Positions 14,313-42,946 of a stretch of DNA of 64,000 nt are shown one piece after another; within the stretch, counting starts at the first letter, position 1, and each line of letters opens with the position of its first letter. Below the pieces are notes generated by a model, which was given only the letters and a program-made list of their open reading frames with translations, had not been told where the DNA came from and searched no databases. The stretch comes from Actinomycetes bacterium (GTDB taxonomy: Bacteria; Actinomycetota; Actinomycetes; JAWWOW01), in NCBI GenBank assembly GCA_045807285.1, contig JBJMHR010000021.1, positions 90,612 to 154,611 of the forward strand. The letters run 5' to 3'. The translations under genes were made by a program, and so were the position numbers.

Positions 14313-14996
14313 ATGCACGTTGTGAATGGAAATCCCACGAAGACGCTGAGCACACCGACCGAAGCAACAGGCCGGGGCGGTACTCGACGCACCCGAGTTG
14401 CCGTGGTCAGCCGTCAGGTTCTCGTGAGCGGCATGCTGCGCCCAGCGCTGGAACAACATGACGGCATTGACGTCGTGCTCGACATTGAAGACCCGTTCGA
14501 CGGCTTTCCCTTGCTGGAAGCAGCAAACCCGGACGTCGTGCTCCTGTGGACCGGGTCGGGCCACGTGCAGACGGTGATCCGCGCGTTGGCCGAGCGACTG
14601 GAAAACGTGAAAGTGATCGTGCTCAGCGGATCGACAACGAACGAGTTGGTCGCCCAGGCGTTCGACGCGGGCGCCAGCGGCTGCATATCGCTTCGGCTGC
14701 CGCTCTCCGCCGTGGTCGAGGCCATCGCCGCCGGCGGCCGGCCGCGGTCACGCCCAAGCACCGCGGTGCCCACACCTCGGCGTACCAGAGAACCGGACCG
14801 AAGCCAGTACCTGACCAACCGTGAACGCGAAGTGCTCAGCCGCATCGCTGATGGGGAATCGACCCGCGGCATTGCCTCCGACTTCGGTGTATCACTCGCC
14901 ACCGTGCGCACGCACACGCAAAACATTCTCATGAAGCTAGGCGTTCACTCGAAAGTCGAGGCGGCCGCGTACGCGGTGCGTAACAACCTGAGTTGA
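14313..14996 (+). CDS. LuxR/NarL-family DNA-binding protein with atypical (pseudo-)receiver domain
   Basis: The C-terminal HTH LTNREREVLSRIADGESTRGIASDFGVSLATVRTHTQNILMKL is LuxR type. The N-terminal region has an REC-like fold but lacks the acidic pocket: VVSRQ replaces the DD pair, and W sits at the phospho-acceptor position (PDVVLLWTGSG). Confidence 0.8.
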   Translation: MHVVNGNPTKTLSTPTEATGRGGTRRTRVAVVSRQVLVSGMLRPALEQHDGIDVVLDIEDPFDGFPLLEAANPDVVLLWTGSGHVQTVIRALAERLENVKVIVLSGSTTNELVAQAFDAGASGCISLRLPLSAVVEAIAAGGRPRSRPSTAVPTPRRTREPDRSQYLTNREREVLSRIADGESTRGIASDFGVSLATVRTHTQNILMKLGVHSKVEAAAYAVRNNLS

Positions 14997-15769
14997 GGCA
15001 TATGTTGGCCGATGCCGAGAAACGGCGTCGCGGGAGCTCCGAGCTCCCTGGCCCGATCCTGCTCGCGCACGAGCTGCGCTCGCACCTCGCCGCGATCATG
15101 CTTGCCTCCTCACATCTGCGCCACCTGACCGCGAGCGCTGCGGACGAAGACGTCACGCGCGCATTGACGACGATCGACAACGCGGTAGGACGCGCGACGG
15201 AGCTCACGACCTGGGTGACGGATTCGGTGGCGGATCTCCTCGAGCCGGTATCCGATGGACAGTCCGCGCTTCCTGGCGTGCCCCGTAACTCTCACGTCGA
15301 CCTTGTCAAGACCGTCACGGACGTCGTTTCGGATCTTCGGCGGATCATTCCCCAGCAGGACGTCCGCGTCGCCGTGTCAGATCACGTGGCCGCGTTGGGC
15401 GACGAGGTCCGCATCCGCGCAATTCTGACGATCGTGATCCTGAACACCGCGCGCCGTTCCACCAACGGCACTGCGATCGATGTCACCGTGTACCGGGAGA
15501 AAGCAACCGCGCAGGTGGTCATTGCGTCGGCGTCCTGGCGACCCGGTCAGGCCGAGATCGACGCACTGTTGCTGCCGTTCAGCGCCATGGAGTCGACGAT
15601 CTCCCTCGACCTCGGGTCCCCGCCGAAACGAGTGGCGACCGGATCGAGCGCAAGTACCGGCTCGGTTCGCGCGGCAAGCATCGATGGTCATGTCGGCGTC
15701 ATCGTGCGCATGCCACTGGGGCGTCTCGCAGTGCCGGATGTGCCCCGGCCCAGCAGCCCGGCGTTATGA
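14993..15769 (+). CDS. Histidine-kinase-like protein without transmembrane sensor (HisKA H-box, degenerate ATPase)
   Basis: H-box LLAHELRSHLAAIM followed by an N-box-like ILTIVILNTARRS. No hydrophobic segments. The start overlaps the upstream stop (TTG at 14993, or ATG at 15002, in the same frame). Confidence 0.6.
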   Translation: MRHMLADAEKRRRGSSELPGPILLAHELRSHLAAIMLASSHLRHLTASAADEDVTRALTTIDNAVGRATELTTWVTDSVADLLEPVSDGQSALPGVPRNSHVDLVKTVTDVVSDLRRIIPQQDVRVAVSDHVAALGDEVRIRAILTIVILNTARRSTNGTAIDVTVYREKATAQVVIASASWRPGQAEIDALLLPFSAMESTISLDLGSPPKRVATGSSASTGSVRAASIDGHVGVIVRMPLGRLAVPDVPRPSSPAL

Positions 15770-15866: not shown

Positions 15867-16121
15867 ATGGATCTCTCAGCGAGCGACGACGTCACTGACC
15901 TCAGCGTCAACTCTGGTGAGCGGCGGCGATACAACCGCCGTCGGCCCGAGTCACAACCATCTCCGCCGTACTTCGCCGTGTTCGAGCGTATGGCTGAGTC
16001 GTTGGAAGCGATCGTCAGCTTGCTGGACATCGGCATCAGCGAGGCGAGAGAGCGTCAAGCGGAGCAGCTGCCAAGGGTCGAGCGCCCGAACCTGCCAAGT
16101 CAATCCGGACCCGGGCGATAA
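15867..16121 (+). CDS. Small hypothetical protein (84 aa), acidic Ser/Asp-rich N-terminus
   Basis: ATG with a near-perfect SD (GAGGAG, 7 nt upstream). It sits directly upstream of the first sulfotransferase gene. Confidence 0.4.
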   Translation: MDLSASDDVTDLSVNSGERRRYNRRRPESQPSPPYFAVFERMAESLEAIVSLLDIGISEARERQAEQLPRVERPNLPSQSGPGR

Positions 16122-16193: not shown

Positions 16194-17111
16194 GTGCTGC
16201 CCAACTTGCTCGTCATCGGTGCAGCGAAGGCCGGCACGACAAGCTTGTGGGCGTATCTGGACGCGCACCCGGACGTGTTCATGGCGCCGGACAAGGAACT
16301 GCACTTCTTCGACCTCGACAGCAACTGGAGTCGCGGCGTCGATTGGTACGCCGGTCACTTCGACGGCAGCGACGGCTACGCGATCGTTGGCGAAGCCACC
16401 CCGGCCTACGCCCGGTACCCCCACCGGCCGAATGCAGCGGAACGTGCCGCAGCCGTGGTACCGGATGCGCGGCTCATCTATCTCGTCCGCGACCCGGTGG
16501 AGCGTGCGCGTTCCCACGTCGTACACGAGATGCGTCACGGCCGCGAGCGGCTCGACCTCGCCGCTGCGTTGTCGGCGAACCCGATGTATCTCGACACCAG
16601 TCGCTATGCCATGCAGCTACGGCAATGGCTGGCTCACTACCGGCGCGAAGCCGTGCTCGTGGTCGAGAGCGAGAGATTGCGTTCTGACCCGGAGACCACG
16701 CTGCGCAGCATCTACCGCTTCCTGTGTGTCGAGGAGCTCGTGCTGCCGGACACGATCGTCGTGAACGAGTCGGCGCAGGCGCTTCGGAGCAGCCCGCGGT
16801 CCCAGCGACTACGCACCAGGAGCGGTGTCCGCACCCTGGCTGCGGTCACCCCTCGCACCTTGCGAGCGGGCCTGAAGGATCGCATCAGGAAGCGCGAACA
16901 CGCACGCGCCCTCGGCGCCGCGATATCACCAGAGCTGCGCGCACAGCTGCTCGAACAGCTTCGACCGGATATCGAAGCACTGGCCGCATTACTGCCGCCG
17001 ACGTTCACCGGCTGGGGCTTGCTCGGCGAACAAAGGACGGCAACAACCGGCGCATTTGTATCAGGGGGAGCCGTTCGAGGCTCCTCGTTAAGCAGCGAGG
17101 AGGCGAGCTGA
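16194..17111 (+). CDS. Sulfotransferase family protein (PAPS-dependent, Sulfotransfer_3-like)
   Basis: 5'-phosphosulfate-binding loop LLVIGAAKAGTTSL. KELHFFD...NWSRGVDWY block. 3'-phosphate-binding motif LIYLVRDPVERARS. Confidence 0.8.
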   Translation: MLPNLLVIGAAKAGTTSLWAYLDAHPDVFMAPDKELHFFDLDSNWSRGVDWYAGHFDGSDGYAIVGEATPAYARYPHRPNAAERAAAVVPDARLIYLVRDPVERARSHVVHEMRHGRERLDLAAALSANPMYLDTSRYAMQLRQWLAHYRREAVLVVESERLRSDPETTLRSIYRFLCVEELVLPDTIVVNESAQALRSSPRSQRLRTRSGVRTLAAVTPRTLRAGLKDRIRKREHARALGAAISPELRAQLLEQLRPDIEALAALLPPTFTGWGLLGEQRTATTGAFVSGGAVRGSSLSSEEAS

Positions 17112-18076
17112 TGAGCGCTACACGGATCAAGAGCCGTCGGGCGGCGGCCGTCTGCCGAGCCGTGGCACCGCTCAGCGTGGCTGCGACCGTTTTCGCCATG
17201 GCAGCACCAGCGCATGCCACCTCAGCTGCACATAGCGACGGGTTCGACCCTGGCCTCCCGGAGCCGGTTGCCGTCGCGACGAGTGGCGACAGCCCCGGAA
17301 CCGGATCCGCCTCGGACCCGGGGAACGGGCTGTCGTCCACCGCCGCTCCGGCGGCGACGCCGACGCCTGGCAGCGGTCGCTGGGCGCATCGACAGCAGGA
17401 GCAGAGTCCGGGGCAACAAACCGTGTCGCACCCCGCGCCGGCTGGCCACGTGCCTGCACCCGCGCCGGCCGCCACACCATCGCCGCAGCCGTGCCCGCCT
17501 CCGCCACCGCAGCACCACGACAACGGTGACCACGGCTTCTTCACGGTCAAGATCACAAATCAGCCCAGCCACCACTTCCTCGTGACGCTGACGTTCCAGT
17601 GCTATGACAAGAACGAGACGCAACACGCAAAGGTGGGCTTCACCGGTGTCAGCCCCACGGGCGACGGCGTACCGGTCAAGATCCTGAGCGGTACGACGAC
17701 CTTCAGCTTCGTCGGTCACCGGTCGACGGCCATTGTCGACGCGGTCCAGGCCTATGTGCTCGATCCCACGGTGCTTGGTCCTTCGGTTGCCAACCAGTGG
17801 CATGTCCGCATCAACGTGCCGATCACGCCGGACGAAAGCGCATCACGTGCTGCTCTCGTCGTACTCGGCACCGGACCCGAGCCGACGCCTACCGTGCTCC
17901 CGTTCCACCGCATCCTCGGGGAGCAGCAGGTCCCACCGCCCAGCGGCAGCAGCCTTCCCTCTACCGGCTTGTCGTCAGTGCCTGCGTACGGCATCGGCGC
18001 CGTGGCCATCTCGACGGGCTTGTTCTTCCTGGTCGTCGGCGCCCGGCCCACCCGCAAGTACAAGCACCGGAGGTAG
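17111..18076 (+). CDS. LPXTG-type cell-wall-anchored surface protein with Pro/Ser/Thr-rich linker
   Basis: The ATG overlaps the stop of the upstream gene (TGATG), and AGGAGG lies upstream. Sec signal peptide ...AMAAPAHA/TS. A ~110-aa P/S/T/G-rich low-complexity region. A beta-rich domain. C-terminal LPSTG + hydrophobic helix + RPTRKYKHRR tail. Confidence 0.7.
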   Translation: MSATRIKSRRAAAVCRAVAPLSVAATVFAMAAPAHATSAAHSDGFDPGLPEPVAVATSGDSPGTGSASDPGNGLSSTAAPAATPTPGSGRWAHRQQEQSPGQQTVSHPAPAGHVPAPAPAATPSPQPCPPPPPQHHDNGDHGFFTVKITNQPSHHFLVTLTFQCYDKNETQHAKVGFTGVSPTGDGVPVKILSGTTTFSFVGHRSTAIVDAVQAYVLDPTVLGPSVANQWHVRINVPITPDESASRAALVVLGTGPEPTPTVLPFHRILGEQQVPPPSGSSLPSTGLSSVPAYGIGAVAISTGLFFLVVGARPTRKYKHRR

Positions 18077-18082
18077 CCCGGG

Positions 18083-18928
18083 ATGACCCCGGGCCGCCTG
18101 CCCACCTTCTACGTGGTCGGGGCCATGAAGAGCGGGACGAGCAGCCTGCACCGGGCGATCGCCGCGCATCCGGACGTGTTCATGTCCACGCCCAAAGAGC
18201 TGCATTACTTCGTCGAAGATCGCAACTGGCAACGTGGCGTGCAGTGGTACGCCGAGCAGTTCGCGCCTGCAGACGGGGCCCTCGCTATTGGCGAAGCATC
18301 GGTGACCTACACGCAGATGCCCTACCGCCCAGGCGTGCCCGAACGGATGGCCGCGCTCACCCCGGAGGCGCGCATCATCTATCTCGTTCGACACCCCGTC
18401 GAACGGATGCTGTCGCATTACCGACACAACCTCGCGTGTGGCCGGGAGAGCCGCGAGCCGGACGCGGCGTTCGAGCGACGCGGCAACTACCTTGCCTTCA
18501 GCCGGTATGGCACGCAGCTCCGCTATTACCAGGACCGGTTTCCACCCGAGCAACTGCTCGTCCTGCCGGCGGAGCGCTTCTTTACCGATCCGGTCCGCGT
18601 GGTGCGTCGAATCTGGACATTTTTGGGCCTCCCGCCGAGCGACGTGGACGTGCCATCGGTTCTCATCAACGCGACGAAAGACCGCCCCGCCCCAGTCGCA
18701 GCGGCTCGGCGATTACGGCACTCCAAAGGTGTCGCCGGCGCCTGGAATGTCTTACCGAAAACTGTGCGCGCCCGTGTGAAGAAGGCTGTTCCGCGCAGCG
18801 CAATGGGCACCCAGCAACTCACGCTGAGTGTCGCCGAGCGACAGCGCATCCAGGATCTCCTCCGCCCCGAAGTGGCGATGATTGCGCCGTACGTCGACGG
18901 GCCGTTCGACCGCTGGGAACTGGTGTAG
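18083..18928 (+). CDS. Sulfotransferase family protein (paralog 2)
   Basis: FYVVGAMKSGTSSL P-loop. KELHYFVEDRNWQRGVQWY. IIYLVRHPVERMLSHY. Confidence 0.8.
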   Translation: MTPGRLPTFYVVGAMKSGTSSLHRAIAAHPDVFMSTPKELHYFVEDRNWQRGVQWYAEQFAPADGALAIGEASVTYTQMPYRPGVPERMAALTPEARIIYLVRHPVERMLSHYRHNLACGRESREPDAAFERRGNYLAFSRYGTQLRYYQDRFPPEQLLVLPAERFFTDPVRVVRRIWTFLGLPPSDVDVPSVLINATKDRPAPVAAARRLRHSKGVAGAWNVLPKTVRARVKKAVPRSAMGTQQLTLSVAERQRIQDLLRPEVAMIAPYVDGPFDRWELV

Positions 18929-19010: not shown

Positions 19011-19457
19011 ATGACCGCCATGAGACCTGGCTCACCAGATTCACCATGCTTACGCGATGGCAACCTATTGCTGACCATCGGCCTCCCGGCTCTTCTCGTG
19101 TCGGTTCCCACCGCACGAGGGTTTGCCGCCCACGCGTGCGAAGAGTTCGGCGTGAGCACTGACTCGACGGAACGCGTCGAGCTCGTTGTATCCGAACTGT
19201 CGGCGAACGCTGTCAAGCATGCGGGTGGCGCCTTTCACCTCGCGCTGATCAAGACGTCCGCCGGAGTGCTCGTGGAGGTCGAAGACCCGCTCACCTGTGC
19301 TCCCCCGGTCGCCAGCCGTCCGGATGCAGATGCCGAGACCGGTCGAGGGCTGCAGGTTGTCGAGCAGCTATCCGACGACTGGGGCTGCGAGGCGCTGCCG
19401 GACGGCAAGCGCATGTGGGCACAGGTGCGGGATCAACCGCTCGTGACGACGACCTGA
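19011..19457 (+). CDS. Anti-sigma regulatory factor-like Ser/Thr kinase (RsbW-like HATPase_c)
   Basis: ELVVSELSANAVKHAGG (N-box) and GRGLQVVEQLSDDWG (G-box), about 148 aa. Confidence 0.65.
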   Translation: MTAMRPGSPDSPCLRDGNLLLTIGLPALLVSVPTARGFAAHACEEFGVSTDSTERVELVVSELSANAVKHAGGAFHLALIKTSAGVLVEVEDPLTCAPPVASRPDADAETGRGLQVVEQLSDDWGCEALPDGKRMWAQVRDQPLVTTT

Positions 19458-22243
19458 TCCATCTTCCCGGTGTACTGATCGCCGCCGTCGTCCGCACCGG
19501 ACGGGTCGAACTTCGCGGAAATCGACATCGGTGACTTGTTGGCAATGGCCCCGATGGAGGTGTTCTTGGCCTTGACCGAGCCACCGTCCACCTGAACGCT
19601 CACCGACGAAGTGCTAAACGTGCAGACGATCGTGTGCCAACTGCCCTTGGAGAGACTGTTCGCGCTCAACAGGTCGCCGGGACCGGCCTTCCCGTTGGTG
19701 TAGCAGCGCGCGTGGCCGTCTTCCATGATCTCGATCTTCCAGTCCTGGTCGTCGCTGCCCAGGCCTTTGCGGAGCAGGTCGAAGTCACCGACGGCAGCGG
19801 AGGGCCACGCGTCGAACCTCAGGTGCAGGCTGACGGTGAACTTCTTGGTTCCCGGGTTGAGGCTCGAGGAGTGCGGAACGAGCACTCGTGACATCGACCC
19901 GTCGACCTTCGGAAACCCATATGCAATCGCGGCCGAGTGGTCGGCCTGACCGATGGCGACGTTGCGCAGCGTGCCGTCGTTCCCGTAGCCGCTCGAGTCA
20001 TGCATCGTCCCGTCTGCGCCGTCCGCCATGGACCAGTTGGCCACTGTGACGGCACCCGGGCTGCCCACGACCGTGCCGGTGGGCTGCGACATCGCGGACG
20101 TCGAGCTCTGCCCGTACTTGTCCGTCACAGTGACACTGACGGAGATCGTGGTGGCGTCGTCGTACGTTCGCACGAGATAACTCGGGGCCGTGCTCCCGGA
20201 CTCTTCCGGTGCGCATGTGTTGGCATCGGTGCATTGCTGCCACAGATACTGGAACGTCAAGTCGCCAGGCTGGTATGTGTAGCCGTTGTCACTCGGCGCC
20301 CAGCCTCCGGGCGTCGCCGACAGCGTGTCCCCAACCTCAGCAGTTCCCTGTATCGCCGGCAAAGCTGTGTTCACCGGTCCGGTCCCAACGACGACTCCGC
20401 TGGGCGCGGTGTACGCCGTCACCGTGTTGACCGTGTTCGACCTCGTGACGGCGACGACGACGACGCTGTCGCGGTCGGCGTCCACCAACGTGTACTGGGC
20501 CGGTGTTCCGGAGTTCGCGAACACGCCGGTACAGGTGGAGACGTCGGGCGGTACGACGCCTTGCGGGCAGCGCAGCCAGGTGTACGCCGGATCACTGACG
20601 TTCGTCCCGGACCAGGTGCCGGGCGAGACCGTCAACGTCGACTGCACCGCCGTGGCACCGCTGACCGACGGGTTGACGACCACGGCAACAGGTGCGGGCG
20701 CCACCGGCCCTTGCGACGGTGCCGGCGCCGACCCGGTCGAGCTGGCGTCATTGTGACCGGTGACGACGACACGCACGTAGTCGCCGACATCACCGGGACC
20801 GAGGGTGTAGGTGTCGAGCGTCGCGCCCGTGAGATCCGTCCAAGCGGCGTTGTCCGGCGAGGTCTGCCACTGGTAGGTGAACGTCACAGTCGGCGTACCG
20901 CTCCAGGTCCCCGGAGTGGAGGTCAATGTCGCCCCGTCGACCAGCGCGCCGCTCATCGACGGCACTGCGGTGTTGACGGGAGCCGCTGCGCGGGCGACGT
21001 TCGTGCTCGCAGAGGGCGTCGACGCGCTGCCGTCAGCGTTCGTCGAGGTCTCGAGTACCCGGATCGTGTGTCCGACGTCCCCCGACACGAGCGTGTAGCT
21101 CGAGCCGGTTGCCCCGGCGATCGACGTACAAGCAGCGCCGGTGCTATCGCATTGCTGCCAGTTGTGCAGCAACGGCCCCTGGTTGGTCCAGGTACCGACG
21201 GTGACGTGCAGGACGGTGCCGTCAAAGGGCGACGGTTTGTCGATCGTCGGGGGCGCGTTGTTGACCGGCGGGTTAGGGCCGGTGACGACGACGGCACTCA
21301 AGGCGCTGTTCGCCGCCCCGGCGGGGTTCGTCCCGTTCGAGGCGGTGACCGAGAGAACGAGCGTGTCCCCGATGTCGGCGGCCGCAGGGGTGTAGGACGC
21401 CTTCGTCGCGCCGGAGATCGGCTGGCAGTTCGCCCCGACCGAGTCACAACCGTTCCATTGGTAGGCGTAGGTGAACGGAGGCGTGCCGTTCCAGGACCCG
21501 GGCGTCGATGACAACGACTGGCCTGATGTCGGTGTGCCAACGGTAGTGGGGAGCGAGTTGTTCGTCGGCGGCGCGGCTGCGATCAATGCGGTCGACGCCG
21601 ACGTTGCGTTCGAGCTGCCGGCCGTGTTGGTGCCGGTGACCCGAAGCTGGACCGTCTTACCCACATCTGCGTGTGCGAGCTGGTAGGTCGACGCCTTGGC
21701 ACCGCTGATCGAGGAACAGGTCCCGTTGAGGCAGCGCTGCCACACATACGTGAACGTGATCGGGGTCTGCCCGGTCCACGTCCCGTTCGTCGAGGACAGC
21801 AACGCGCCGTCAGTCGGCGTACCGGACACCGTCGGGGCAGCCGTGTTGGCCGGCGCCGCGCCGGCGGTCACAGCGGTGCTCCGGGCGGAGAACGCGGTCT
21901 TGCTGCCCGCCGAGTTCGTCGCGATCACGCGAGACCGCAGCTGCTTGCCTTTGTCCGCGGCGACCACCACATAGGTCGTCGCCGCGGAACCCGAGATGTT
22001 GCTGCACGACCCACCGACAACGCAGCGCTGCCACAGGTAGGTGAACGTCGGCGCGGGACTGCCGGACCACGTGCCGGCTGTCGTCGCCATCGCCTGGCCG
22101 ACCGTCGGCTGGCCGCTCAACACAGGCGCCGTCGTCAACTTCGGCGCTGTCGCGGCATGTGCCTGCCCGGCGGGGATCGCAATGGCGACGGCAATGACGG
22201 CAGGCGAGAGAACGCGTGCCCACTTTCGGCTCGCGTCAGCCAT
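19433..22243 (-). CDS. Secreted protein with seven ~88-aa Ig-like repeats and C-terminal LamG (concanavalin-A-like) domain
   Basis: Signal peptide MADASRKWARVLSPAVIAVAIAIPAGQAHA. Seven repeats with a conserved T.GxWxG.P..TFTY.WQRC...C..I.GA motif. The C-terminal ~200 aa has the Laminin_G_3 pattern (SGYGNDGTL...FTVSLHLRFDAW). Confidence 0.7.
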   Translation of the reverse strand: MADASRKWARVLSPAVIAVAIAIPAGQAHAATAPKLTTAPVLSGQPTVGQAMATTAGTWSGSPAPTFTYLWQRCVVGGSCSNISGSAATTYVVVAADKGKQLRSRVIATNSAGSKTAFSARSTAVTAGAAPANTAAPTVSGTPTDGALLSSTNGTWTGQTPITFTYVWQRCLNGTCSSISGAKASTYQLAHADVGKTVQLRVTGTNTAGSSNATSASTALIAAAPPTNNSLPTTVGTPTSGQSLSSTPGSWNGTPPFTYAYQWNGCDSVGANCQPISGATKASYTPAAADIGDTLVLSVTASNGTNPAGAANSALSAVVVTGPNPPVNNAPPTIDKPSPFDGTVLHVTVGTWTNQGPLLHNWQQCDSTGAACTSIAGATGSSYTLVSGDVGHTIRVLETSTNADGSASTPSASTNVARAAAPVNTAVPSMSGALVDGATLTSTPGTWSGTPTVTFTYQWQTSPDNAAWTDLTGATLDTYTLGPGDVGDYVRVVVTGHNDASSTGSAPAPSQGPVAPAPVAVVVNPSVSGATAVQSTLTVSPGTWSGTNVSDPAYTWLRCPQGVVPPDVSTCTGVFANSGTPAQYTLVDADRDSVVVVAVTRSNTVNTVTAYTAPSGVVVGTGPVNTALPAIQGTAEVGDTLSATPGGWAPSDNGYTYQPGDLTFQYLWQQCTDANTCAPEESGSTAPSYLVRTYDDATTISVSVTVTDKYGQSSTSAMSQPTGTVVGSPGAVTVANWSMADGADGTMHDSSGYGNDGTLRNVAIGQADHSAAIAYGFPKVDGSMSRVLVPHSSSLNPGTKKFTVSLHLRFDAWPSAAVGDFDLLRKGLGSDDQDWKIEIMEDGHARCYTNGKAGPGDLLSANSLSKGSWHTIVCTFSTSSVSVQVDGGSVKAKNTSIGAIANKSPMSISAKFDPSGADDGGDQYTGKMDQVVVTSG

Positions 22244-24509: not shown

Positions 24510-25240
24510 GGCGCGAGGGCGGCTTGCTTGACCGCTTGCTTCGCGCTGTCTGCTGTTTTGTTCGCTGCCGTCACCACGCCGGAGGCCTGCCGAACGACAT
24601 CGGAGGTGACCTTGTCGTTGGCGGCGATCGACGCGTGCACCGAGTCGACGACCTTCGAGGGCCCGGTGACCAGTGGGTGCGCAGCGACCGCGTTGTACAG
24701 CACTTCCAAGGCCTGCAACGCACGGATGCGTGCCTTGCCATAGTCGGCGCGGGCGCTCCGCACACCCGTCACGGCGTGCGCGATCGAGGCGAGCTGAGCG
24801 CGGGTCGGTCGAAGCGCCTTGTCAGCAGCACGGGAGGCAGCGAAGGACGCGGCACAGTCGCCGGCCTGGCCGGCTGAGTAGGCCCGCCCGATCTGACGTT
24901 GGACCGCAGCGATCTCGGCCGTGAAGCGGCCCATGGCGGGACCCAGCCCGGACTGTGAGCCCCGCGCGCGCACCGCTGCCGCGGCGGCGTCGAGCGCGCC
25001 GAGGGCATCTTCGACCGATGCCTGCGCCCGCACGAGATCCGGCGGGCGGCCGGCGTTTCGCCGCACTGAGCCGATCGTGCCGGGCGCCGGCGGTGCCGGG
25101 GCCGGTGCCGTCGTGCGAGTGGTCGGGGCGGCCTGTGGCTTCAGGGCATGCCCGCTCGATCCGCTGCCGGCACCACATGCCGTCACGCCGAGGGCGATTC
25201 CCGCGACCACAGCTGCAGCGCTGCGGGTGAGGGTGCTCAC
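24497..25240 (-). CDS. Ala-rich secreted lipoprotein, function unknown
   Basis: The GTG start at 25240 overlaps the epimerase stop (GTGA). The lipobox is LGVTAC. The rest is alpha-helical and Ala-rich. The ORF-track N-terminal extension to 25522 is rejected as R/H-rich junk. Confidence 0.5.
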   Translation of the reverse strand: MSTLTRSAAAVVAGIALGVTACGAGSGSSGHALKPQAAPTTRTTAPAPAPPAPGTIGSVRRNAGRPPDLVRAQASVEDALGALDAAAAAVRARGSQSGLGPAMGRFTAEIAAVQRQIGRAYSAGQAGDCAASFAASRAADKALRPTRAQLASIAHAVTGVRSARADYGKARIRALQALEVLYNAVAAHPLVTGPSKVVDSVHASIAANDKVTSDVVRQASGVVTAANKTADSAKQAVKQAALAPCLV

Positions 25241-26265
25241 TTGTCCCTGACCTGAGGTGTCGTGATGTCGACGCTCTGGGCGCCGACCATGCGTTCGGGC
25301 TTGGCCAACCACCGGACGTCGCGGCGGTGCCGATGCCAATGCACCTGCTCGGCGATGCCGGCGCGCAGTGAGACGTGCGGCGTCCAGCCCAACAACTGTG
25401 CAGCTCGACTGATGTCGGCGGCTGTCTTGTCCACGTCGCCCGCTTGCGCAGAGACGGTTTCGCTGTCCACCGCCAGGCCAACGGCCTGCGAGATGATCCG
25501 TAGCAGTTCGTTCACCGTGCATGCGCCGCCGCCTGCGATGTTGACGGTGGTGCCTGGCGGCAGGTCGGTCGCCTCGCCCGCACGGATCGTGGCAGCGACG
25601 GCATCGAGCACGAAGGTGAAGTCGCGGACCTGCTCCCCGTCACCGAAAACCATGGCCGGGTGCCCGTCGAGTGCCGACTCGATGAACCGGTGGATGCCCA
25701 TGTCCGGCCGCTGCCGCGGTCCATAAACGGTGAAGTAGCGCAACGAAGTTGTCGGGACGCCGTAGTTGGCGGCGTACAGATGACACAGGTGTTCGGCCGC
25801 GAGCTTGGTCACGCCGTAGGGGCTGTGCGGTGCCGGTAAAGCGTGCTCGTGGGTCGGGTAACCAGCGGCGTTGCCGTACACCGACGAGCTCGACGCGTAG
25901 ACGAACCGCGTCAGGGAGTCAATGTGCCGGCACTCTTCGAGGAGGCGTTGCGTGACCATCACGTTCTGTTCGACGTAGCCCCTGAACCCTCGCTCCCACG
26001 ACGGCCGCACACCGGGTTGGCCGGCCAGGTGGAAGACGACCTCGGCCCCGGACAGGATCGAGCGCAGTTCGCTGCGACCGAGGTCGCGAGCGAGGAACTG
26101 GAAACGTTGGTGCGTGAGGTACGGCGCGATGTTCTCCTGCTTCTGCGCCGGGTCGTAATAGGGGGTCAGCGCGTCCACGCCGACGACATCGTGCCCGGCG
26201 CCGAGCAGCCGCTCGACCAGAAAGCTCCCGATGAAACCGGCCGCCCCCGTGACGACGACTCTCAT
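25237..26265 (-). CDS. NAD-dependent epimerase/dehydratase (UDP-sugar 4-epimerase-like, extended SDR)
   Basis: VVTGAAGFIGSFLVERL Rossmann motif. YASSSSVYG and the YGVTK catalytic YxxxK. Confidence 0.85.
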   Translation of the reverse strand: MRVVVTGAAGFIGSFLVERLLGAGHDVVGVDALTPYYDPAQKQENIAPYLTHQRFQFLARDLGRSELRSILSGAEVVFHLAGQPGVRPSWERGFRGYVEQNVMVTQRLLEECRHIDSLTRFVYASSSSVYGNAAGYPTHEHALPAPHSPYGVTKLAAEHLCHLYAANYGVPTTSLRYFTVYGPRQRPDMGIHRFIESALDGHPAMVFGDGEQVRDFTFVLDAVAATIRAGEATDLPPGTTVNIAGGGACTVNELLRIISQAVGLAVDSETVSAQAGDVDKTAADISRAAQLLGWTPHVSLRAGIAEQVHWHRHRRDVRWLAKPERMVGAQSVDITTPQVRDK

Positions 26266-26280
26266 GTCGGTTCCCCCGGC

Positions 26281-28008
26281 CTACTCGGCCCGCACGCGGC
26301 GCGTACTGCTCGTCGCCGGTGGCAGCCGTCGCAGCTTTGCGGCGGCGGACCGCCCGGTCGGCTGCTCCTCCTCCTGCTCGACCGCTCGCGGACGAGGTAC
26401 GCCCGCGTCGAGGTCGATGGACACCCGTGGGCCGAGCGGTGCCCAACCCTTCTCGCCCAGGCCGACCAGACCCATGCAGGGCAGGTTCAGCCGGCGAAGA
26501 TCGAGCACCGATGCATGCAGTCCGGCACGCGTTGCGTGCCCGACCCGGGCCACGACAACGCTCGAGTCGGCGGCGCTCACGAGCGGGATGACCTCGCCGG
26601 AGCTCATCATCGGCGGGCTGTCGACGATGACGATGCCGACCTCAGCCAGCTGCGCGAAGATCCCGGTCAGTGTTGCCCGCATGAACGACTCCGCGGGGTT
26701 ACGGTCCGAGCCGCCCGATGGCAACAGGTAGCTGTTCGGACCCACCTCGACGAGGAGCTCGCGCGCATCGTGCGCCGTACCGTCAACGAGCTCAGCGAGC
26801 CCCGGGCGTGCCAACGTCCGGTGCACCCGGTCGAGCGTGCGATCGCGGAGGTTCGCCGAGACGACGACGACCGTTCGTCCCTGGTTCGCGAGCGACTGTG
26901 CGAGGTTCAACACAAAGGTCGTCTTGCCGCCGCCGTCCTCGGGACTCAGGATGGCGAGCACCTTGACCGACGTACCGAGGCCCGCGAGCTGCAACGCGCT
27001 GCGGGTCCGTTGGATCGCTTCGGCCGCAGGGCTGTGCGGCTTGGCGTTGACGGCGATACGGCCACCTCGAACGCTGGCCATGGTCGGAATCACGCCGAGC
27101 AGCGGCAACCCGGTGAGGGCTTCCGCCTCGGCCGAGGACGCGAGCCGCCGACGCAACGCCTCGACCACGCACGCGGTACCAACGCCGACGAGCAGTCCGA
27201 GCACGAGCCCGGCAACGAGCAGCACACGGCGGCTCGTCGGGTGCTGCACGGTGCGCACGATGACCGGGCCGGCGACGGAGGTCGGCAGGCCCTTCAGCGA
27301 CTGCTGTGCCCGCGCGCTGCTGAGTGCGGAAACGGTGGACTCGTACGCCTTGGTGGCGACCTGTAGCTGCGCAGCGGTGAGCGCGCTCGTGACATGGCCG
27401 GCGCTGGCCTGGCGCTCTGCGTCAGCCTGACGCGACCAGGCAGCGACCTCCTTGAAGTCGCTGTTGGACTGCGCCGTGAGCGTTGCCACCAGCGACGCTT
27501 GTGCCGCCGTTGCCGCCTTGTTCCGACTGGCGACGTACGTCGCGACGTACGCGCGGATCACCCGACCGGTCAACCCGGCATCGTGATCAGTGAAGGTCAG
27601 GTCGACCCACGTCGTCCCGGTGACAGGCTTGGCGCTGAGCTTCGACAGGCCGCTCACACCTGAGTTCGCCTTGTTTGTCTGGTCGAGGTGACCGGCACGT
27701 GCGCCCAGTGACTTCAGCGCAGCCGCCATCACCGTCGGGTCGGCGTACCGGGCGACACCGTTGCCGCTGTTGCCGCTTCGCGTGGTCGACGTACCGGCGG
27801 AGGCCGCCTTCTCCGAGCCGAACGCCTTGATGTCCACGCGTTGCGAGGCGGCGTAGGTGCGCGTGTTCGTCGTGACCAGCGGGACCACAAGGGCACCGAG
27901 CAGGCCGCCCAGGGCCACCGAGACCAGCACGATGACGCGATGGCGCCAGGCCGCACCGAGGTAGTCGCCGAGCGCCGGCGTGGGATTCATCGACTCATAG
28001 GTCGCCAT
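26281..28008 (-). CDS. Polysaccharide co-polymerase / BY-kinase (Wzc/CpsD-like) homolog lacking C-terminal Tyr cluster
   Basis: N-terminal TM + Wzz-like periplasmic region + second TM. P-loop LSPEDGGGKTTFVLNLA and Walker B VIVDSPP. The C-terminal 60 aa contain no Tyr. Confidence 0.8.
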   Translation of the reverse strand: MATYESMNPTPALGDYLGAAWRHRVIVLVSVALGGLLGALVVPLVTTNTRTYAASQRVDIKAFGSEKAASAGTSTTRSGNSGNGVARYADPTVMAAALKSLGARAGHLDQTNKANSGVSGLSKLSAKPVTGTTWVDLTFTDHDAGLTGRVIRAYVATYVASRNKAATAAQASLVATLTAQSNSDFKEVAAWSRQADAERQASAGHVTSALTAAQLQVATKAYESTVSALSSARAQQSLKGLPTSVAGPVIVRTVQHPTSRRVLLVAGLVLGLLVGVGTACVVEALRRRLASSAEAEALTGLPLLGVIPTMASVRGGRIAVNAKPHSPAAEAIQRTRSALQLAGLGTSVKVLAILSPEDGGGKTTFVLNLAQSLANQGRTVVVVSANLRDRTLDRVHRTLARPGLAELVDGTAHDARELLVEVGPNSYLLPSGGSDRNPAESFMRATLTGIFAQLAEVGIVIVDSPPMMSSGEVIPLVSAADSSVVVARVGHATRAGLHASVLDLRRLNLPCMGLVGLGEKGWAPLGPRVSIDLDAGVPRPRAVEQEEEQPTGRSAAAKLRRLPPATSSTRRVRAE

Positions 28009-28029
28009 GGTTCCTCCATGTGGACGAAG

Positions 28030-28932
28030 TCATGCGATGCCCCACCCGTCGAACGGGCCGCGCACGTAGGGACGGATACGTCGGACGTCAACGGCCAGCC
28101 GGGACTGCAACTCGGCACGTACGTCCGGGGAGATCTCCACCATGTCTTGCAAGTCCGGTTGCAGCGCTTCGCGCCGTCGCAATCGGGTCTTGACGGTGCC
28201 TGGGAGCGCCCGCGCTACGCCTTGCAACACGGGATGACCGACAGCGCGTGGTCGGGTACGGAAGCGCGTCGCTCGGTTCAGGTGTGGTACGTCGTTGCGG
28301 GGCACCCATGACGTGTCGACGCCCAGGAAGCCGAACACTTCCCGCATCGCCGCGCGTGGCTCCTGCCAGAGCCATTCCGACGTGATCACGCAGACCCGAC
28401 CGGCCGGGTAGTGCTCCAACCACTGATCGAGCTGCAGCGCGTAGGAGCTTGCGTCCACGTACTTCGGTTGGCCGAGCAGCGCGCCGCCCGCGGAGCCGTA
28501 CCGGCCGATCCGCGACCAGCCCGCCGGCGGCGTGCCGACCACCGCGCGGCGCACGTCGTGCTCGTATTGCGACCGCATGCGCTCGATCGGCTCGCGTACG
28601 ACGTACACCAGGCGCGCTTGCGGAACGACCGACGCGGCACGCCCGGCGACGCCGGCGAGCTGCGGGCTCTGCGTGTACGTGACGGAGGCCTCACCGCGAA
28701 CCGCTTTATGTGCGCCCTTGGTGAACTGCTGCGCGTACCACGGCACGCCCTGGCGCCAGTTGCGCTCAGCGACGAAGAAGTGCAGCTCCTTCGGCTGGGA
28801 CATGAAGATCTCGGGGTGCTCGGACAGGGCCTGGTGCAGGCTCGTCGACCCGGCACGCATCGCGCCGATCACAAGGAGGTTGGGCAACGTGGTTGCGCTT
28901 GCGGCGGCGGTCATAGCTTGCTGGACTGCCAT
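28030..28932 (-). CDS. Sulfotransferase family protein (paralog 3)
   Basis: LLVIGAMRAGSTSL. KELHFFVAERNWRQGVPWY. LVYVVREPIERMRSQY. Confidence 0.8.
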   Translation of the reverse strand: MAVQQAMTAAASATTLPNLLVIGAMRAGSTSLHQALSEHPEIFMSQPKELHFFVAERNWRQGVPWYAQQFTKGAHKAVRGEASVTYTQSPQLAGVAGRAASVVPQARLVYVVREPIERMRSQYEHDVRRAVVGTPPAGWSRIGRYGSAGGALLGQPKYVDASSYALQLDQWLEHYPAGRVCVITSEWLWQEPRAAMREVFGFLGVDTSWVPRNDVPHLNRATRFRTRPRAVGHPVLQGVARALPGTVKTRLRRREALQPDLQDMVEISPDVRAELQSRLAVDVRRIRPYVRGPFDGWGIA

Positions 28933-30936: not shown

Positions 30937-31048
30937 GCTCGAACAGAGACAGGGCGGTCTGCCCTGATACGTCGCAGCCGGCGTGTATCACTCAGTGGCT
31001 GTCTCGGCTCTAGTCGGCGCTGACACAAGTGCACGACCAGGAGGCGAG
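30937..31048. promoter_or_regulatory. Divergent intergenic control region between wzm-led minus operon and pqqD-like-led plus operon
   Basis: 112 bp. Perfect hairpin/palindrome CAGGGC-ggtct-GCCCTG at 30950-30966. AGGAGG SD at 31038-31043. Confidence 0.4.
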
Positions 31049-32321: not shown

Positions 32322-32340
32322 CGGGTGACGAGGAGGTGAC

Positions 32341-42857: not shown

Positions 42858-42891
42858 GATGACTAGTCCCTTCCGATGGGGTGCTTGGGCC

Positions 42892-42946
42892 TAGTGGGCT
42901 ATACGACGCGTGCGCAAAATTGCTTTAGTGGGTGTACGCAAGTGAC
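42892..42946. repeat. Direct repeat TAGTGGG-N2/4-TACG...CGCA (two copies, 34 bp apart) in divergent promoter
   Basis: tagtgggctatacgacgcgtgcgca at 42892-42916 and tagtgggtgtacgca at 42926-42940, read directly. Confidence 0.3.

What the first reader, a model, noticed from the sequence alone, without database searches (positions are those of the whole stretch)
16194..18928. Sulfotransferase - LPXTG protein - sulfotransferase cassette: candidate sulfated/glycosylated sortase substrate
Seen: the stf1 stop overlaps the start of a 321-aa ORF (TGATG at 17109-17113, AGGAGG upstream). That ORF encodes a Sec signal peptide (AMAAPAHA/TS), a ~110-aa Pro/Ser/Thr/Gly-rich low-complexity stretch, a beta-rich domain and a C-terminal LPSTG + TM + RPTRKYKHRR sorting signal. 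Seven nt after its stop, stf2 begins.

Established: Pro/Ser/Thr-rich linkers of actinobacterial secreted proteins are the usual O-glycosylation sites, and LPXTG proteins are covalently attached to peptidoglycan by sortase.

Inference: tight translational coupling of a surface-anchored PST-rich protein between two sulfotransferases suggests that it is the acceptor scaffold, for example a sulfated O-glycan mucin-like wall protein, or a glycan-presenting anchor. A bacterial sulfated sortase-anchored glycoprotein would be new.
Basis: partly seen in the sequence, partly recalled or inferred. Interest (0 to 1): 0.8.

Follow-up and report, generated by a model that had tools for sequence, protein, structure and literature searches.

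The report
Sulfotransferase–anchored protein–sulfotransferase operon, conserved
In an uncultured soil actinomycete, a cell-wall-anchored surface protein is encoded between two cytoplasmic sugar-type sulfotransferases, and related metagenome contigs keep this order, so the three probably work together on a sulfated surface glycoconjugate; that the protein itself gets sulfated is plausible but unproven.

Summary
stf1 (16194-17111), a 321-aa ORF (17111-18076) and stf2 (18083-18928) are tightly linked on the + strand. Both flanking genes are intact PAPS-sulfotransferases of the heparan-sulfate 3-OST/NDST-like kind. They have no signal peptide or membrane segment. The middle protein has a signal peptide, a 91-aa P/S/T/A-rich stalk, an Ig-like beta-sandwich and a conserved LPxTG sorting signal.

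The sandwich recurs in seven further metagenome loci with both flanks visible or one cut off, with middle proteins only 38-49% identical. The middle-protein, Stf2 and upstream 84-aa ORF families are all tiny (about 8-11 clusters).

New context: the cassette lies at the edge of a polysaccharide locus holding three more paralogous sulfotransferases, and a 222-kb contig shares this synteny. The nearest Stf relatives in reference genomes sit in polysaccharide clusters.

The enzymes are cytoplasmic and no glycosyltransferase lies in the operon. Sulfation must therefore precede export, most likely on a lipid-linked glycan. Whether the anchored protein carries that glycan, docks it, or is only co-regulated is open. 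Tyrosine sulfation and an SRRP-like system are rejected.

Interest is moderate. It is a new variant of known kinds, and only biochemistry can test it.

The parts
14313..14996 (+). LuxR/GerE-type response-regulator-like transcription factor, first gene of the conserved upstream block
   Evidence: Pfam GerE E=2e-18. The receiver domain is weak (E=1e-5, below cut-off). NarL/MctR-like in NCBIfam, below cut-offs. A GerE gene occupies the same position in L005, L035 and L037.
14993..15769 (+). Histidine-kinase-like protein (weak HisKA only, no ATPase domain found); variable in length among relatives
   Evidence: Pfam HisKA E=0.005, below cut-off. Weak NCBIfam kinase matches. The corresponding gene is 237 aa in L005 and 109-122 aa in L037 and L035.
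15867..16121 (+). Conserved 84-aa cytoplasmic protein: acidic N-terminus, RRRYNRRRP arginine-rich motif, PPYF, then one long helix. Function unknown.
   Evidence: Eleven clusters in 5.8 billion proteins. The N-terminal 53 aa are nearly invariant. In a 35-codon block, 17-19 third-position changes accompany only 5-6 amino-acid changes against the window (2 among the other divergent relatives), which indicates purifying selection. AF2 models a single helix at aa 35-66. No Pfam or NCBIfam match. It lies directly upstream of Stf1 in L001, L005, L035 and L037.
16194..17111 (+). stf1: soluble cytoplasmic PAPS-dependent sulfotransferase, heparan-sulfate 3-OST/NDST-like
   Evidence: Pfam Sulfotransfer_3 1.4e-17 and Sulfotransfer_1 9e-17. 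Best PDB matches are 3rnl (5.9e-30), then HS 3-OST-1/3/5 and NDST1. The 5'-PSB Lys loop, the GEA(T/S) Glu and the RxPxxRxxS motif are invariant in orthologues. No hydrophobic segment. Orthologues in L001 and L005 are 61% identical.
17111..17218 (+). Signal peptide of the middle protein (aa 1-36, predicted cleavage AHA|TS)
   Evidence: Sequence. Hydrophobic windows begin at aa 11. Conserved in homologues.
17219..17491 (+). N-terminal P/S/T/A/G-rich disordered stalk (aa 37-127); candidate modification site
   Evidence: Composition. pLDDT below 50. Poorly conserved in sequence, but a 59-103-aa stalk is present in every sandwich locus. No tandem repeats.
17492..17878 (+). Conserved domain: the CPxPPPQHHDxxDHGFFTVK motif followed by an Ig-like beta-sandwich (aa 128-256). 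It has two invariant Cys and is rich in His.
17954..18076 (+). Cell-wall sorting signal: LPSTG (17954-17968), hydrophobic segment (about 17978-18043), basic tail RPTRKYKHRR, stop
   Evidence: Sequence. LP[STQVAF]TG plus a TM segment and a basic tail are conserved in all full-length family members.
18083..18928 (+). stf2: second soluble cytoplasmic PAPS-dependent sulfotransferase, 39% identical to stf1
   Evidence: Pfam Sulfotransfer_3 6.2e-20 and Sulfotransfer_1 9.3e-17. PDB matches are 3rnl, then HS 3-OSTs. The orthogroup holds 8 clusters at 62-69% identity, then a gap to 51% or less, with every near-full-length match at 43% or less. No hydrophobic segment.
19433..22243 (-). Syntenic neighbour: 936-aa secreted protein with AIR9-like Ig repeats and a C-terminal LamG domain
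   Evidence: Pfam. Homologues lie downstream of the cassette in L005 and L035.
25237..46246 (.). Adjacent polysaccharide-assembly locus with three further paralogous sulfotransferases (28030-28932 -, 40108-41028 +, 45395-46246 +). It also holds an epimerase, a BY-kinase/chain-length protein, a Wzm/Wzt-type ABC exporter, a priming polyprenyl-P glycosylphosphotransferase, one GT2, three GT4s and a Wzy_C protein.
   Evidence: Pfam and NCBIfam. Paralogue identities are mostly 36-39%, range 30-47%. The 22-28.5 kb part is syntenic in L035.

Best explanation
The three genes are the core of a conserved operon: small Arg-rich protein, Stf1, LPxTG protein, Stf2. A LuxR-type regulator precedes it. The operon sits at the edge of a sulfated-glycan biosynthesis locus.

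Stf1 and Stf2 are soluble, cytoplasmic, PAPS-dependent O-sulfotransferases of the carbohydrate (heparan-sulfate 3-OST/NDST-like) type. The most likely mechanism is that each puts sulfate on a different sugar or position of a polyprenyl-phosphate-linked glycan on the cytoplasmic face, before export. This is what the paired enzymes Agl30 and Agl31 do in Halobacterium.

The middle protein is exported, and sortase fixes it to peptidoglycan through LPSTG. It then serves as the wall-anchored partner of that sulfated glycan. It could be the covalent carrier on its N-terminal P/S/T/A stalk (my sub-estimate about 0.25), or a non-covalent dock or organiser through its Ig-like domain (about 0.2).

Shown: gene structure, domain identities, intact catalytic motifs, cytoplasmic location of the enzymes, the sorting signal, and conservation of the arrangement. 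Inferred: the acceptor, the stage at which sulfation occurs, and any physical link between the glycan and the protein.
For: - The genes are tightly linked: a TGATG overlap, then a 6-nt gap with its own SD. In relatives the middle-to-Stf2 gaps run from -4 to 52 nt.
- The sandwich is conserved in L001, L005, L006, L007, L008, L010, L035 and L037, although the middle proteins are only 38-49% identical.
- The three families are equally tiny and co-distributed: about 8 middle-protein subfamily members, 8 Stf2 orthologue clusters, and 11 small-ORF clusters.
- Both enzymes keep the PAPS-binding and catalytic motifs.
- Their best solved-structure matches are glycan sulfotransferases.
- Their nearest genomic relatives lie among GT4, DegT, Polysacc_synt_2 and UDP-Glc dehydrogenase genes.
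- Three paralogues, a priming transferase, GTs, a Wzm/Wzt exporter and a Wzy_C protein lie 6-27 kb away. This neighbourhood is conserved on a 222-kb contig.
- The enzymes have no signal peptide or TM segment, so sulfation must precede export.
- Precedent: two adjacent sulfotransferases modify different sugars of the Halobacterium N-glycan, which is assembled on dolichol phosphate. Sulfated dolichyl-phosphate tetrasaccharides have been purified (PMC11980604).
- The N-terminal stalk is present in every sandwich locus. Relatives without flanking Stfs place their linker differently.
Against: - No glycosyltransferase, flippase or oligosaccharyltransferase is in the operon.
- The only candidate transferase is a Wzy_C protein 15 kb away. 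It has no PglL-type or NCBIfam match.
- The polysaccharide locus already has three sulfotransferases of its own.
- Only two long contigs show its proximity to the cassette.
- The stalk has no conserved sequon.
- The beta-sandwich is not basic (pI 5.6-6.5 in most members), so a polyanion-binding role is not evident.
- One Stf2 orthologue lacks the protein (L036). One close homologue of the protein has no Stf2 within the 230 nt held downstream (L011).
- All sandwich loci come from one narrow uncultured lineage, so gene order could be kept by descent alone.
- No sulfated bacterial sortase substrate is known; a literature search found nothing relevant.
Confidence: 0.45

Rival explanations
1. Stf1 and Stf2 only decorate a free polysaccharide (an EPS or wall glycopolymer) made by the neighbouring locus. 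The LPxTG protein has an independent surface function, such as adhesin or spacer. It shares the operon only because all are parts of one co-regulated envelope programme.
For: - The family context of the enzymes is polysaccharide biosynthesis.
- Five roughly equidistant paralogues lie in one region.
- Synteny with the polysaccharide genes is conserved.
- A predicted sulfated EPS cluster with an HS-type sulfotransferase exists in Actinoplanes missouriensis (PMC13390465).
- L036 and L011 show that the partners can occur apart.
Against: - This does not explain why the protein gene is kept precisely between the two enzymes across 38-49% sequence divergence.
- It does not explain why Stf1 and Stf2 sit in a separate operon with their own regulator rather than in the polysaccharide locus.
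- It does not explain why the N-terminal stalk architecture tracks the sandwich.
Confidence: 0.25
2. The pre-protein is sulfated directly. Stf1 and Stf2 O-sulfate Ser/Thr hydroxyls of the disordered N-terminal stalk in the cytoplasm before Sec export. This follows the logic by which Aah heptosylates AIDA-I, or GtfA/B glycosylate serine-rich-repeat adhesins, before export (those precedents are from my own knowledge). Sortase then anchors a polyanionic, mucin-like stalk.
For: - The only secreted candidate substrate in the operon is the protein itself; no GT is present.
- The enzymes and the nascent pre-protein share the cytoplasm, and translation is coupled.
- The stalk is 22-30% Ser+Thr and present in all sandwich loci.
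- A semi-conserved L-x-x-L-D-x-R-D element inside the stalks of several homologues could be a recognition element.
Against: - The enzymes are closest to glycan sulfotransferases, not to any protein sulfotransferase.
- To my knowledge, no enzyme for Ser/Thr O-sulfation is known in any organism.
- There are no conserved acceptor residues in the stalk.
- Tyrosine is excluded: the stalk of the window protein has no Tyr, and the domain Tyr residues are replaced by Phe in P0003, P0008 and P0011.
Confidence: 0.12
3. Synteny by descent only. An LPxTG gene became inserted between tandemly duplicated sulfotransferase genes in the ancestor of one narrow lineage and has simply not been separated since. 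There is no functional interaction.
For: - All sandwich loci come from a handful of related soil or peat metagenomes and MAGs.
- None of 185,579 reference species has the protein.
- More distant homologues of the domain are not next to sulfotransferases (L009, L012, L013).
- The exceptions L011 and L036 exist.
Against: - Divergence is substantial: middle protein 38-49%, Stf1 61%, Stf2 62-69%. Third codon positions differ at about half of the codons sampled.
- Flanking genes have changed: MIP in L002 and L005, PNPOx in L035, HATPase_c_2 in the window. The trio nevertheless stays contiguous with short same-strand gaps.
Confidence: 0.13
4. The true partner or acceptor of the sulfotransferases is the very conserved 84-aa cytoplasmic protein upstream (invariant Tyr22, Ser29 and Tyr35), or that protein is an adaptor that presents a substrate. 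The LPxTG protein is secondary.
For: - It is the most conserved gene of the operon and is under strong purifying selection.
- It is co-distributed with the cassette.
- It shares the cytoplasm with the enzymes.
Against: - The tyrosines lie in an Arg-rich context, not an acidic one.
- The AF2 model is one helix plus a disordered Arg-rich segment. That looks more like a nucleic-acid- or protein-binding regulator than an RRE-like adaptor or a precursor peptide.
- There is no exporter or protease in the operon.
Confidence: 0.05

Closest known systems
Agl30/Agl31 of Halobacterium salinarum (two sulfotransferases acting on the N-glycan of surface glycoproteins; PMC11980604)
   Same: Two adjacent, non-redundant sulfotransferases. 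At least one is soluble and cytosolic. Sulfation occurs on sugars of a glycan assembled on a lipid carrier before transfer to a surface protein. A pair of enzymes is needed because different positions are sulfated.
   Different: That system is archaeal, N-linked, uses the AglB oligosaccharyltransferase, and its target is an S-layer protein or archaellin. Here no OTase has been identified, the candidate carrier is a sortase substrate, and its gene lies between the two enzymes. I did not test sequence relatedness to Agl30/31.
Heparan-sulfate 3-O-sulfotransferases / NDST sulfotransferase domain, and bacterial 3rnl
   Same: These are the best solved-structure matches (E 1e-30 to 1e-13). They share the 5'-PSB Lys loop, the GE(A/K)(S/T) Glu and the RxPxxRxxS 3'-PB motif.
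   Different: The animal enzymes are Golgi-lumenal and act on a polymer already attached to a core protein. Stf1 and Stf2 are cytoplasmic, and their acceptor is unknown.
Bacterial sulfated-EPS clusters: synechan xss of Synechocystis (PMC8205485) and predicted wps-1 of Actinoplanes missouriensis (PMC13390465)
   Same: Polysaccharide assembly and export genes are interspersed with HS-type sulfotransferases. wps-1 also has a kinase-like protein, and it comes from an actinomycete. The window's 25-46 kb locus fits this kind.
   Different: In what I read of the wps-1 paper, no sortase-anchored protein flanked by sulfotransferases is mentioned; of the synechan paper I saw only the abstract. Sulfation in A. 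missouriensis is itself unverified.
Cytoplasmically modified surface adhesins: serine-rich-repeat LPXTG proteins (GspB/Fap1 with GtfA/B) and AIDA-I with Aah (my own knowledge)
   Same: Dedicated modifying enzymes are encoded next to a Ser/Thr-rich exported adhesin. Modification occurs in the cytoplasm before export. The SRRPs are LPXTG-anchored.
   Different: Those modifications are glycosylations. SRRPs have long repeats and an accessory SecA2/SecY2 system. Here there are no repeats, no GT in the operon, and no accessory Sec genes in the window.
RaxST/RaxX and TPST protein tyrosine sulfation (my own knowledge)
   Same: A PAPS sulfotransferase is encoded beside its secreted protein or peptide substrate, and sulfation occurs before export.
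   Different: No TPST appears among the solved-structure matches. There is no conserved Tyr in an acidic context.

Membership tests
PAPS-dependent sulfotransferase (Pfam Sulfotransfer_1/Sulfotransfer_3; HS 3-OST/NDST-like) | Domain match above the curated threshold | tested here: met
   Stf1 scores 65.2 and 61.7 bits, and Stf2 72.8 and 61.7 bits, against cut-offs of 27 and 22.
PAPS-dependent sulfotransferase (Pfam Sulfotransfer_1/Sulfotransfer_3; HS 3-OST/NDST-like) | 5'-phosphosulfate-binding loop with Lys (GxxKxGT[TS]S) and 3'-phosphate-binding motif (RxPxxRxxS) | tested here: met
   Stf1 has GAAKAGTTS and RDPVERARS. Stf2 has GAMKSGTSS and RHPVERMLS. K16, G18, T19, R103, P105, R108 and S111 are invariant in the six orthologues.
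PAPS-dependent sulfotransferase (Pfam Sulfotransfer_1/Sulfotransfer_3; HS 3-OST/NDST-like) | Catalytic base (Glu of the GE-x-[ST] segment in HS sulfotransferases) | tested here: met
   G70, E71 and A72 are invariant in orthologues and aligned to GEAS of 3rnl. The assignment as catalytic base rests on my knowledge of 3-OST/NDST.
PAPS-dependent sulfotransferase (Pfam Sulfotransfer_1/Sulfotransfer_3; HS 3-OST/NDST-like) | Demonstrated sulfotransfer and identity of the acceptor | not testable with these tools
   This needs an enzyme assay.
Sortase substrate (LPXTG cell-wall sorting signal) | N-terminal signal peptide | tested here: met
   aa 1-36, with a basic n-region, a hydrophobic core and AHA|T. 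Conserved in homologues.
Sortase substrate (LPXTG cell-wall sorting signal) | LPXTG-type pentapeptide followed by a hydrophobic segment and a basic tail at the extreme C-terminus | tested here: met
   LPSTG, about 22 hydrophobic residues, then RPTRKYKHRR. LP[STQVAF]TG is conserved across the family.
Sortase substrate (LPXTG cell-wall sorting signal) | Match to curated anchor models (Pfam Gram_pos_anchor, NCBIfam LPXTG anchor) | tested here: not met
   No hit at E<=0.01. To my knowledge these short models are often insensitive, so this carries little weight.
Sortase substrate (LPXTG cell-wall sorting signal) | A cognate sortase in the genome | not testable with these tools
   No TLxTC motif occurs in any frame of the window. 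The rest of the MAG was not available.
Serine-rich-repeat glycoprotein system (GspB/Fap1 type) | Long Ser-rich repeats, adjacent GtfA/B glycosyltransferases and accessory SecA2/SecY2 | tested here: not met
   No tandem repeats in the ORF. No GT in the operon. None of the window proteins scanned matched a Sec component.
Protein tyrosine sulfation (TPST / RaxST-RaxX) | Enzyme related to TPST/RaxST; conserved acceptor Tyr in an acidic context | tested here: not met
   PDB matches are only 3rnl, HS 3-OSTs and NDST. Tyr165 and Tyr216 are Phe in P0003, P0008 and P0011, and there is no Tyr in the window stalk.
Lipid-linked glycan sulfation feeding protein glycosylation (Agl30/Agl31 type) | Paired sulfotransferases plus genes for assembly of a lipid-linked glycan nearby | tested here: met
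   Stf1 and Stf2, plus a priming polyprenyl-P glycosylphosphotransferase, GT2 and GT4s, and a Wzm/Wzt exporter at 28.9-40.1 kb.
Lipid-linked glycan sulfation feeding protein glycosylation (Agl30/Agl31 type) | An oligosaccharyltransferase that moves the glycan onto the protein | tested here: inconclusive
   The only candidate is a Wzy_C-domain protein (33522-34829, E=2e-12). The domain is shared by polymerases, ligases and PglL-type O-OTases (my knowledge). No NCBIfam match.

The most novel reading that the evidence does not exclude
A bacterial 'proteoglycan'. A sortase-anchored wall protein has an N-terminal mucin-like stalk that carries sulfate. The sulfate is either on an O-linked glycan sulfated at the lipid-linked stage, or directly on Ser/Thr. 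A dedicated pair of heparan-sulfate-type sulfotransferases flanking its gene installs it. This would be the first sulfated sortase substrate. If the sulfation is direct, it would also identify the first Ser/Thr protein O-sulfotransferases.
Probability: 0.3. Interest if true: 0.85.

Novelty: new variant of a known kind. Interest (0 to 1): 0.55.

Why it matters
- Sulfated surface glycoconjugates are well documented in animals, algae, cyanobacteria and haloarchaea. In actinomycetes they have only just been suspected (PMC13390465).
- This window holds five paralogous sulfotransferases and a full polysaccharide pathway in an uncultured actinomycete. Within it is a conserved operon that ties two of the enzymes to one wall-anchored protein.
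- If the protein carries the sulfate, the module would be a compact, transplantable three-gene system for making a polyanionic, covalently wall-attached surface layer. It would also extend protein sulfation to bacterial sortase substrates.
- If it does not, the locus is still a clean candidate for the first biochemically tractable actinobacterial sulfated glycan. It would also be a case where gene order alone misleads about enzyme-substrate pairs.

Tried and rejected
- **Tyrosine sulfation (TPST/RaxST-like): rejected.** No TPST appears among the PDB matches, and there is no conserved Tyr.
- **SRRP-like system: rejected.** No repeats, no GT in the operon, and no Sec-component match among the window proteins scanned.
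- **Small upstream ORF as a RiPP recognition element or precursor: not supported.** AF2 gives a single helix plus a disordered Arg-rich segment, and no family matches.
- **Polyanion binding by a basic surface: not supported** by the pI values.
- **Searches that failed or returned nothing.**
  - The afdb50 fold library was unavailable.
  - The genome-contig scan with the domain alignment found no relative in 185,579 species.
  - The metagenome-contig scan added only one locus.
  - The first Stf alignment was too divergent to scan with.
  - The promoter and terminator scan of 14.0-19.6 kb found nothing, so operon boundaries rest on gene spacing alone.
  - The literature search for sulfotransferase plus LPXTG gave nothing relevant.
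- **Scan of related Stf loci.** I searched 21 related Stf loci in reference genomes for any adjacent LPxTG or middle-like ORF and found none.

Full report
**1. The observation**

ORF listing and direct reading confirm the gene structure.
- stf1 runs 16194-17111 (GTG start, 305 aa).
- Its TGA overlaps the ATG of a 321-aa ORF, 17111-18076, through TGATG at 17109-17113. AGGAGG at 17098-17103 precedes that ATG.
- stf2 runs 18083-18928 (281 aa). It starts 6 nt after the TAG, behind a GGAGG.
- Third-position GC is 0.77, 0.79 and 0.79 in the called frames. The sliding frame plot follows them.

Both flanking ORFs pass the Pfam thresholds for Sulfotransfer_1 and Sulfotransfer_3. The middle ORF matches no Pfam or NCBIfam family.

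The middle protein has these parts.
- A signal peptide, aa 1-36, ending AHA|TS.
- A 91-aa P/A/S/G/T-rich segment that AF2 leaves disordered.
- A beta-sandwich at aa 141-253, pLDDT 65-87.
- LPSTG, a hydrophobic segment, and the tail RPTRKYKHRR.

It is the only such sorting signal in six-frame translation of the whole window. Minor corrections: the stalk is about 91 aa, not about 110; the stop-to-start spacer is 6 nt; and there are no repeats.

**2. The enzymes**

Stf1 and Stf2 are 39% identical.
- Their best solved-structure match is the bacterial sulfotransferase 3rnl. Next come heparan-sulfate 3-O-sulfotransferases 1, 3 and 5 and the NDST1 sulfotransferase domain.
- No TPST, Stf0, StaL/Teg or CurM-type enzyme appears at E<=0.01.
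- The PAPS 5'-phosphosulfate loop with its Lys, the GEA[ST] glutamate and the RxPxxRxxS motif are invariant in the six orthologues aligned.
- Neither enzyme has a signal peptide or a hydrophobic segment. The polypeptide begins essentially at the PAPS loop.

They are therefore intact, soluble, cytoplasmic sulfotransferases of the carbohydrate type. This constrains any mechanism. They can only act on something present in the cytoplasm. That means a nucleotide- or lipid-linked sugar, or the not-yet-exported pre-protein. It cannot be a glycan already added outside the membrane.

**3. The middle protein and its family**

The family is very small.
- A search of 5.8 billion proteins gave four homologues besides the protein itself. 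The source is an NCBI MAG labelled 'Actinomycetes bacterium', and the middle ORF is ACJ735_12445.
- An exhaustive profile search of 1.84 billion representatives gave 24 hits at E<=1e-3 and 11 at E<=1e-10.
- None of 185,579 reference species encodes it.

The conserved part is CPxPPPQHHDxxDHGFFTVK plus the beta-sandwich, with two invariant Cys. The stalk is not conserved in sequence. Every full-length member ends in LP[STQVAF]TG, a TM segment and a basic tail.

**4. Is the sandwich conserved?**

Contexts were recovered for the homologues.

| Locus | Protein | What is visible |
|---|---|---|
| L001 | P0002 | Stf1-like, middle, Stf2-like |
| L005 | P0003 | Stf1-like, middle, Stf2-like |
| L007 | (unnamed) | Stf1-like, middle, Stf2-like |
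| L008 | P0011 (38% identical over the domain) | Stf1-like, middle, Stf2-like |
| L010 | P0008 | Stf1-like, middle, Stf2-like |
| L035 | on a 222-kb contig | Stf1-like, middle, Stf2-like |
| L006 | P0004 | middle, Stf2; contig cut |
| L037 | (unnamed) | Stf1, middle; contig cut |

Gaps are short and all genes are on the same strand.

The exceptions are as follows.
- P0006 (L011) has no Stf2 within 230 nt downstream.
- An Stf2 orthologue of 62% identity in L036 follows a different secreted protein, with no Stf1 or middle gene.
- More distant relatives are not next to sulfotransferases: P0012 (L009), P0010 (L012) and P0014 (L013).

The Stf2 orthogroup is as small as the protein subfamily. It holds eight clusters at 62-69% identity, then a gap to 51% or less, with every near-full-length match at 43% or less.

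One architectural correlate stands out. All sandwich members have a 59-103-aa stalk N-terminal of the domain. The non-sandwich relatives have a short N-terminal segment and a Pro/Ser/Thr linker between the domain and LPxTG. The samples are few and not phylogenetically independent.

**5. The wider setting, which the finding did not include**

*Upstream.* There is a conserved block.
- It holds a GerE-type regulator (14313-14996), a variable histidine-kinase-like gene, and an 84-aa ORF (15867-16121).
- The 84-aa ORF recurs directly before Stf1 in L001, L005, L035 and L037.
- It has only 11 clusters in the database, and its first 53 residues are nearly invariant.
- In a 35-codon block, comparisons with the window show 17-19 third-position differences against 5-6 amino-acid changes, and comparisons among the other divergent relatives show only 2 amino-acid changes. 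It is therefore a real gene under strong purifying selection.
- AF2 shows one long helix after a disordered RRRYNRRRP segment. Its role is unknown.

*Downstream.* The window holds the following.
- A RsbA-like HATPase_c_2 gene.
- A 936-aa secreted AIR9-Ig/LamG protein.
- A 757-aa protein with no Pfam family.
- From 25 to 46 kb, a polysaccharide locus. It holds an epimerase, a BY-kinase/chain-length protein, a Wzm/Wzt-type ABC exporter, a polyprenyl-phosphate glycosylphosphotransferase, one GT2, three GT4s, a Wzy_C protein and three more sulfotransferases.

The five sulfotransferases are mostly 36-39% identical to one another, with a range of 30-47%. The 222-kb contig L035 keeps the whole order from the regulator to the third sulfotransferase. 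L005 keeps the LamG protein.

The nearest Stf relatives in reference genomes are only 37-42% identical.
- In the two loci whose neighbours I scanned (L014 and L016), they lie among GT4, DegT, Polysacc_synt_2, UDP-glucose dehydrogenase and ABC-transporter genes.
- In none of the 21 loci do they lie next to an LPxTG or middle-like ORF.

**6. Mechanism**

The data support a functional module but do not identify the acceptor. I commit to sulfation at the glycan level in the cytoplasm. Stf1 and Stf2 would each modify a different position of a lipid-linked glycan. The anchored protein would be the wall-fixed partner of that glycan.

The closest working precedent is Halobacterium.
- Adjacent Agl30 and Agl31 sulfate different sugars of the N-glycan, which is assembled on dolichol phosphate before transfer to surface glycoproteins.
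- Sulfated dolichyl-phosphate oligosaccharides have been isolated (PMC11980604).

My estimates are as follows.

| Explanation | Probability |
|---|---|
| Module explanation, total | 0.45 |
| - protein is the covalent carrier | about 0.25 |
| - protein is a non-covalent dock | about 0.20 |
| Polysaccharide-only decoration with a merely co-regulated protein | 0.25 |
| Synteny by descent only | 0.13 |
| Direct Ser/Thr sulfation of the pre-protein before Sec export | 0.12 |
| The small protein as the real partner | 0.05 |

Direct Ser/Thr sulfation would follow the logic of Aah/AIDA-I and GtfA/B-SRRPs, which I cite from my own knowledge.

Tyrosine sulfation is rejected. The stalk of the window protein has no Tyr, and the domain tyrosines are Phe in several sandwich members.

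Weak points of my preferred model:
- no transferase to the protein is identified; there is only a Wzy_C protein with no finer assignment;
- there is no sequon;
- the Ig-like domain is not basic.

**7. Comparison with what is known, and novelty**

The enzymes are ordinary members of the sulfotransferase superfamily, and the protein meets the sequence definition of a sortase substrate. A cognate sortase could not be checked, because none is in the window.

The combination is not described.
- A full-text search for sulfotransferase plus LPXTG returned nothing relevant.
- Sulfated polysaccharides in actinomycetes are so far only a prediction from the wps-1 cluster of Actinoplanes missouriensis (PMC13390465).

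I class it as a new variant of known kinds. It combines a sulfated-glycan pathway with a dedicated, sandwiched, wall-anchored protein.

The most novel reading not excluded is a sulfated sortase-anchored 'proteoglycan' or mucin-like protein (probability about 0.3). That would be of high interest.

Overall interest is 0.55. However, the topology and the family context weaken the specific acceptor claim. The lineage is uncultured, so only heterologous reconstitution and MS can decide.

Noticed in passing
window 25237-46246 (sulfotransferases at 28030-28932 -, 40108-41028 +, 45395-46246 +): A complete polysaccharide assembly and export locus: an epimerase, a BY-kinase/chain-length protein, a Wzm/Wzt ABC exporter, a priming glycosylphosphotransferase, one GT2, three GT4s and a Wzy_C protein. 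It also holds three further sulfotransferases paralogous to Stf1 and Stf2. It is a candidate sulfated glycan pathway in an actinomycete, something so far only predicted (PMC13390465).
   Followed up: partly
window 15867-16121 (+): An 84-aa ORF directly upstream of stf1. It is the most conserved gene of the cassette: the N-terminal 53 aa are nearly invariant across 11 clusters, and it carries an RRRYNRRRP motif. It is under strong purifying selection and matches no known family. AF2 shows a single long helix.
   Followed up: yes
window 19433-22243 (-); L005 6442-7839; L035 12700-14622: A 936-aa secreted protein with about eight AIR9/SCAB-like Ig repeats and a C-terminal LamG domain. It is kept downstream of the cassette in three loci. 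Extra small LamG_3 proteins lie upstream of the regulator in L035 and L037 and next to the distant homologue in L009.
   Followed up: partly
window 22236-24509 (-); L035 14615-16852: A 757-aa protein with no Pfam family. It has only a faint similarity (E about 1e-4) to the kinase region of class III/IV lanthionine synthetases. It is conserved in synteny between the cassette and the polysaccharide locus. The Actinoplanes wps-1 cluster also contains a kinase-like protein.
   Followed up: no
window 41025-42857 (-): A 610-aa secreted protein made of two copies of a domain of about 280 aa, joined by a Pro/Ser-rich linker. It has no Pfam or NCBIfam match and lies inside the polysaccharide locus. It could be a glycan-processing enzyme or binding protein.
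   Followed up: no
L036 988-2770: An Stf2 orthologue (62% identical) without Stf1 or the anchored protein. It lies 128 nt downstream of a different secreted 267-aa protein (NWSGY...WAGIGG motifs, which recall peptidase G1). A luciferase-like oxidoreductase follows it.
   Followed up: partly
window 17111-17491 and the homologues' stalks (alignment A1 columns about 90-110): Within the otherwise unconserved stalk, several homologues share a short L-x-x-L-D-[ST]-R-D element (LRNLDTRD, LRTLDSRD, VRQLDSRD). The window copy has diverged (GRWAHRQQEQ). It could be a recognition or structural element.
   Followed up: no
window 13743-14144 (+), 19011-19457 (+); L035 1156-3180, 11863-12609: Partner-switching-type regulators bracket the cassette. 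A STAS protein lies upstream and a RsbA-like HATPase_c_2 anti-sigma kinase downstream. In L035 there are also a SpoIIE phosphatase and a second HATPase_c_2. This hints at stress- or development-linked control.
   Followed up: no
proteins P0015, P0017, P0018, P0019: A more distant branch of the same beta-sandwich domain (E 1e-9 to 1e-5). It has a PPGNNGTIK(V/I)D...H-x-N-x-P-H-[IV]-x-C motif. P0018 and P0019 end in an LPxTG signal; P0015 and P0017 end only in a hydrophobic segment with a basic tail. It suggests an unnamed actinobacterial surface-protein domain family with a His-rich site.
   Followed up: no
window 31440-32321 (+): An HprK-related kinase A-like protein (NCBIfam TIGR04352, E=6e-9, below cut-off) at the head of the glycosyltransferase operon of the polysaccharide locus.
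   Followed up: no
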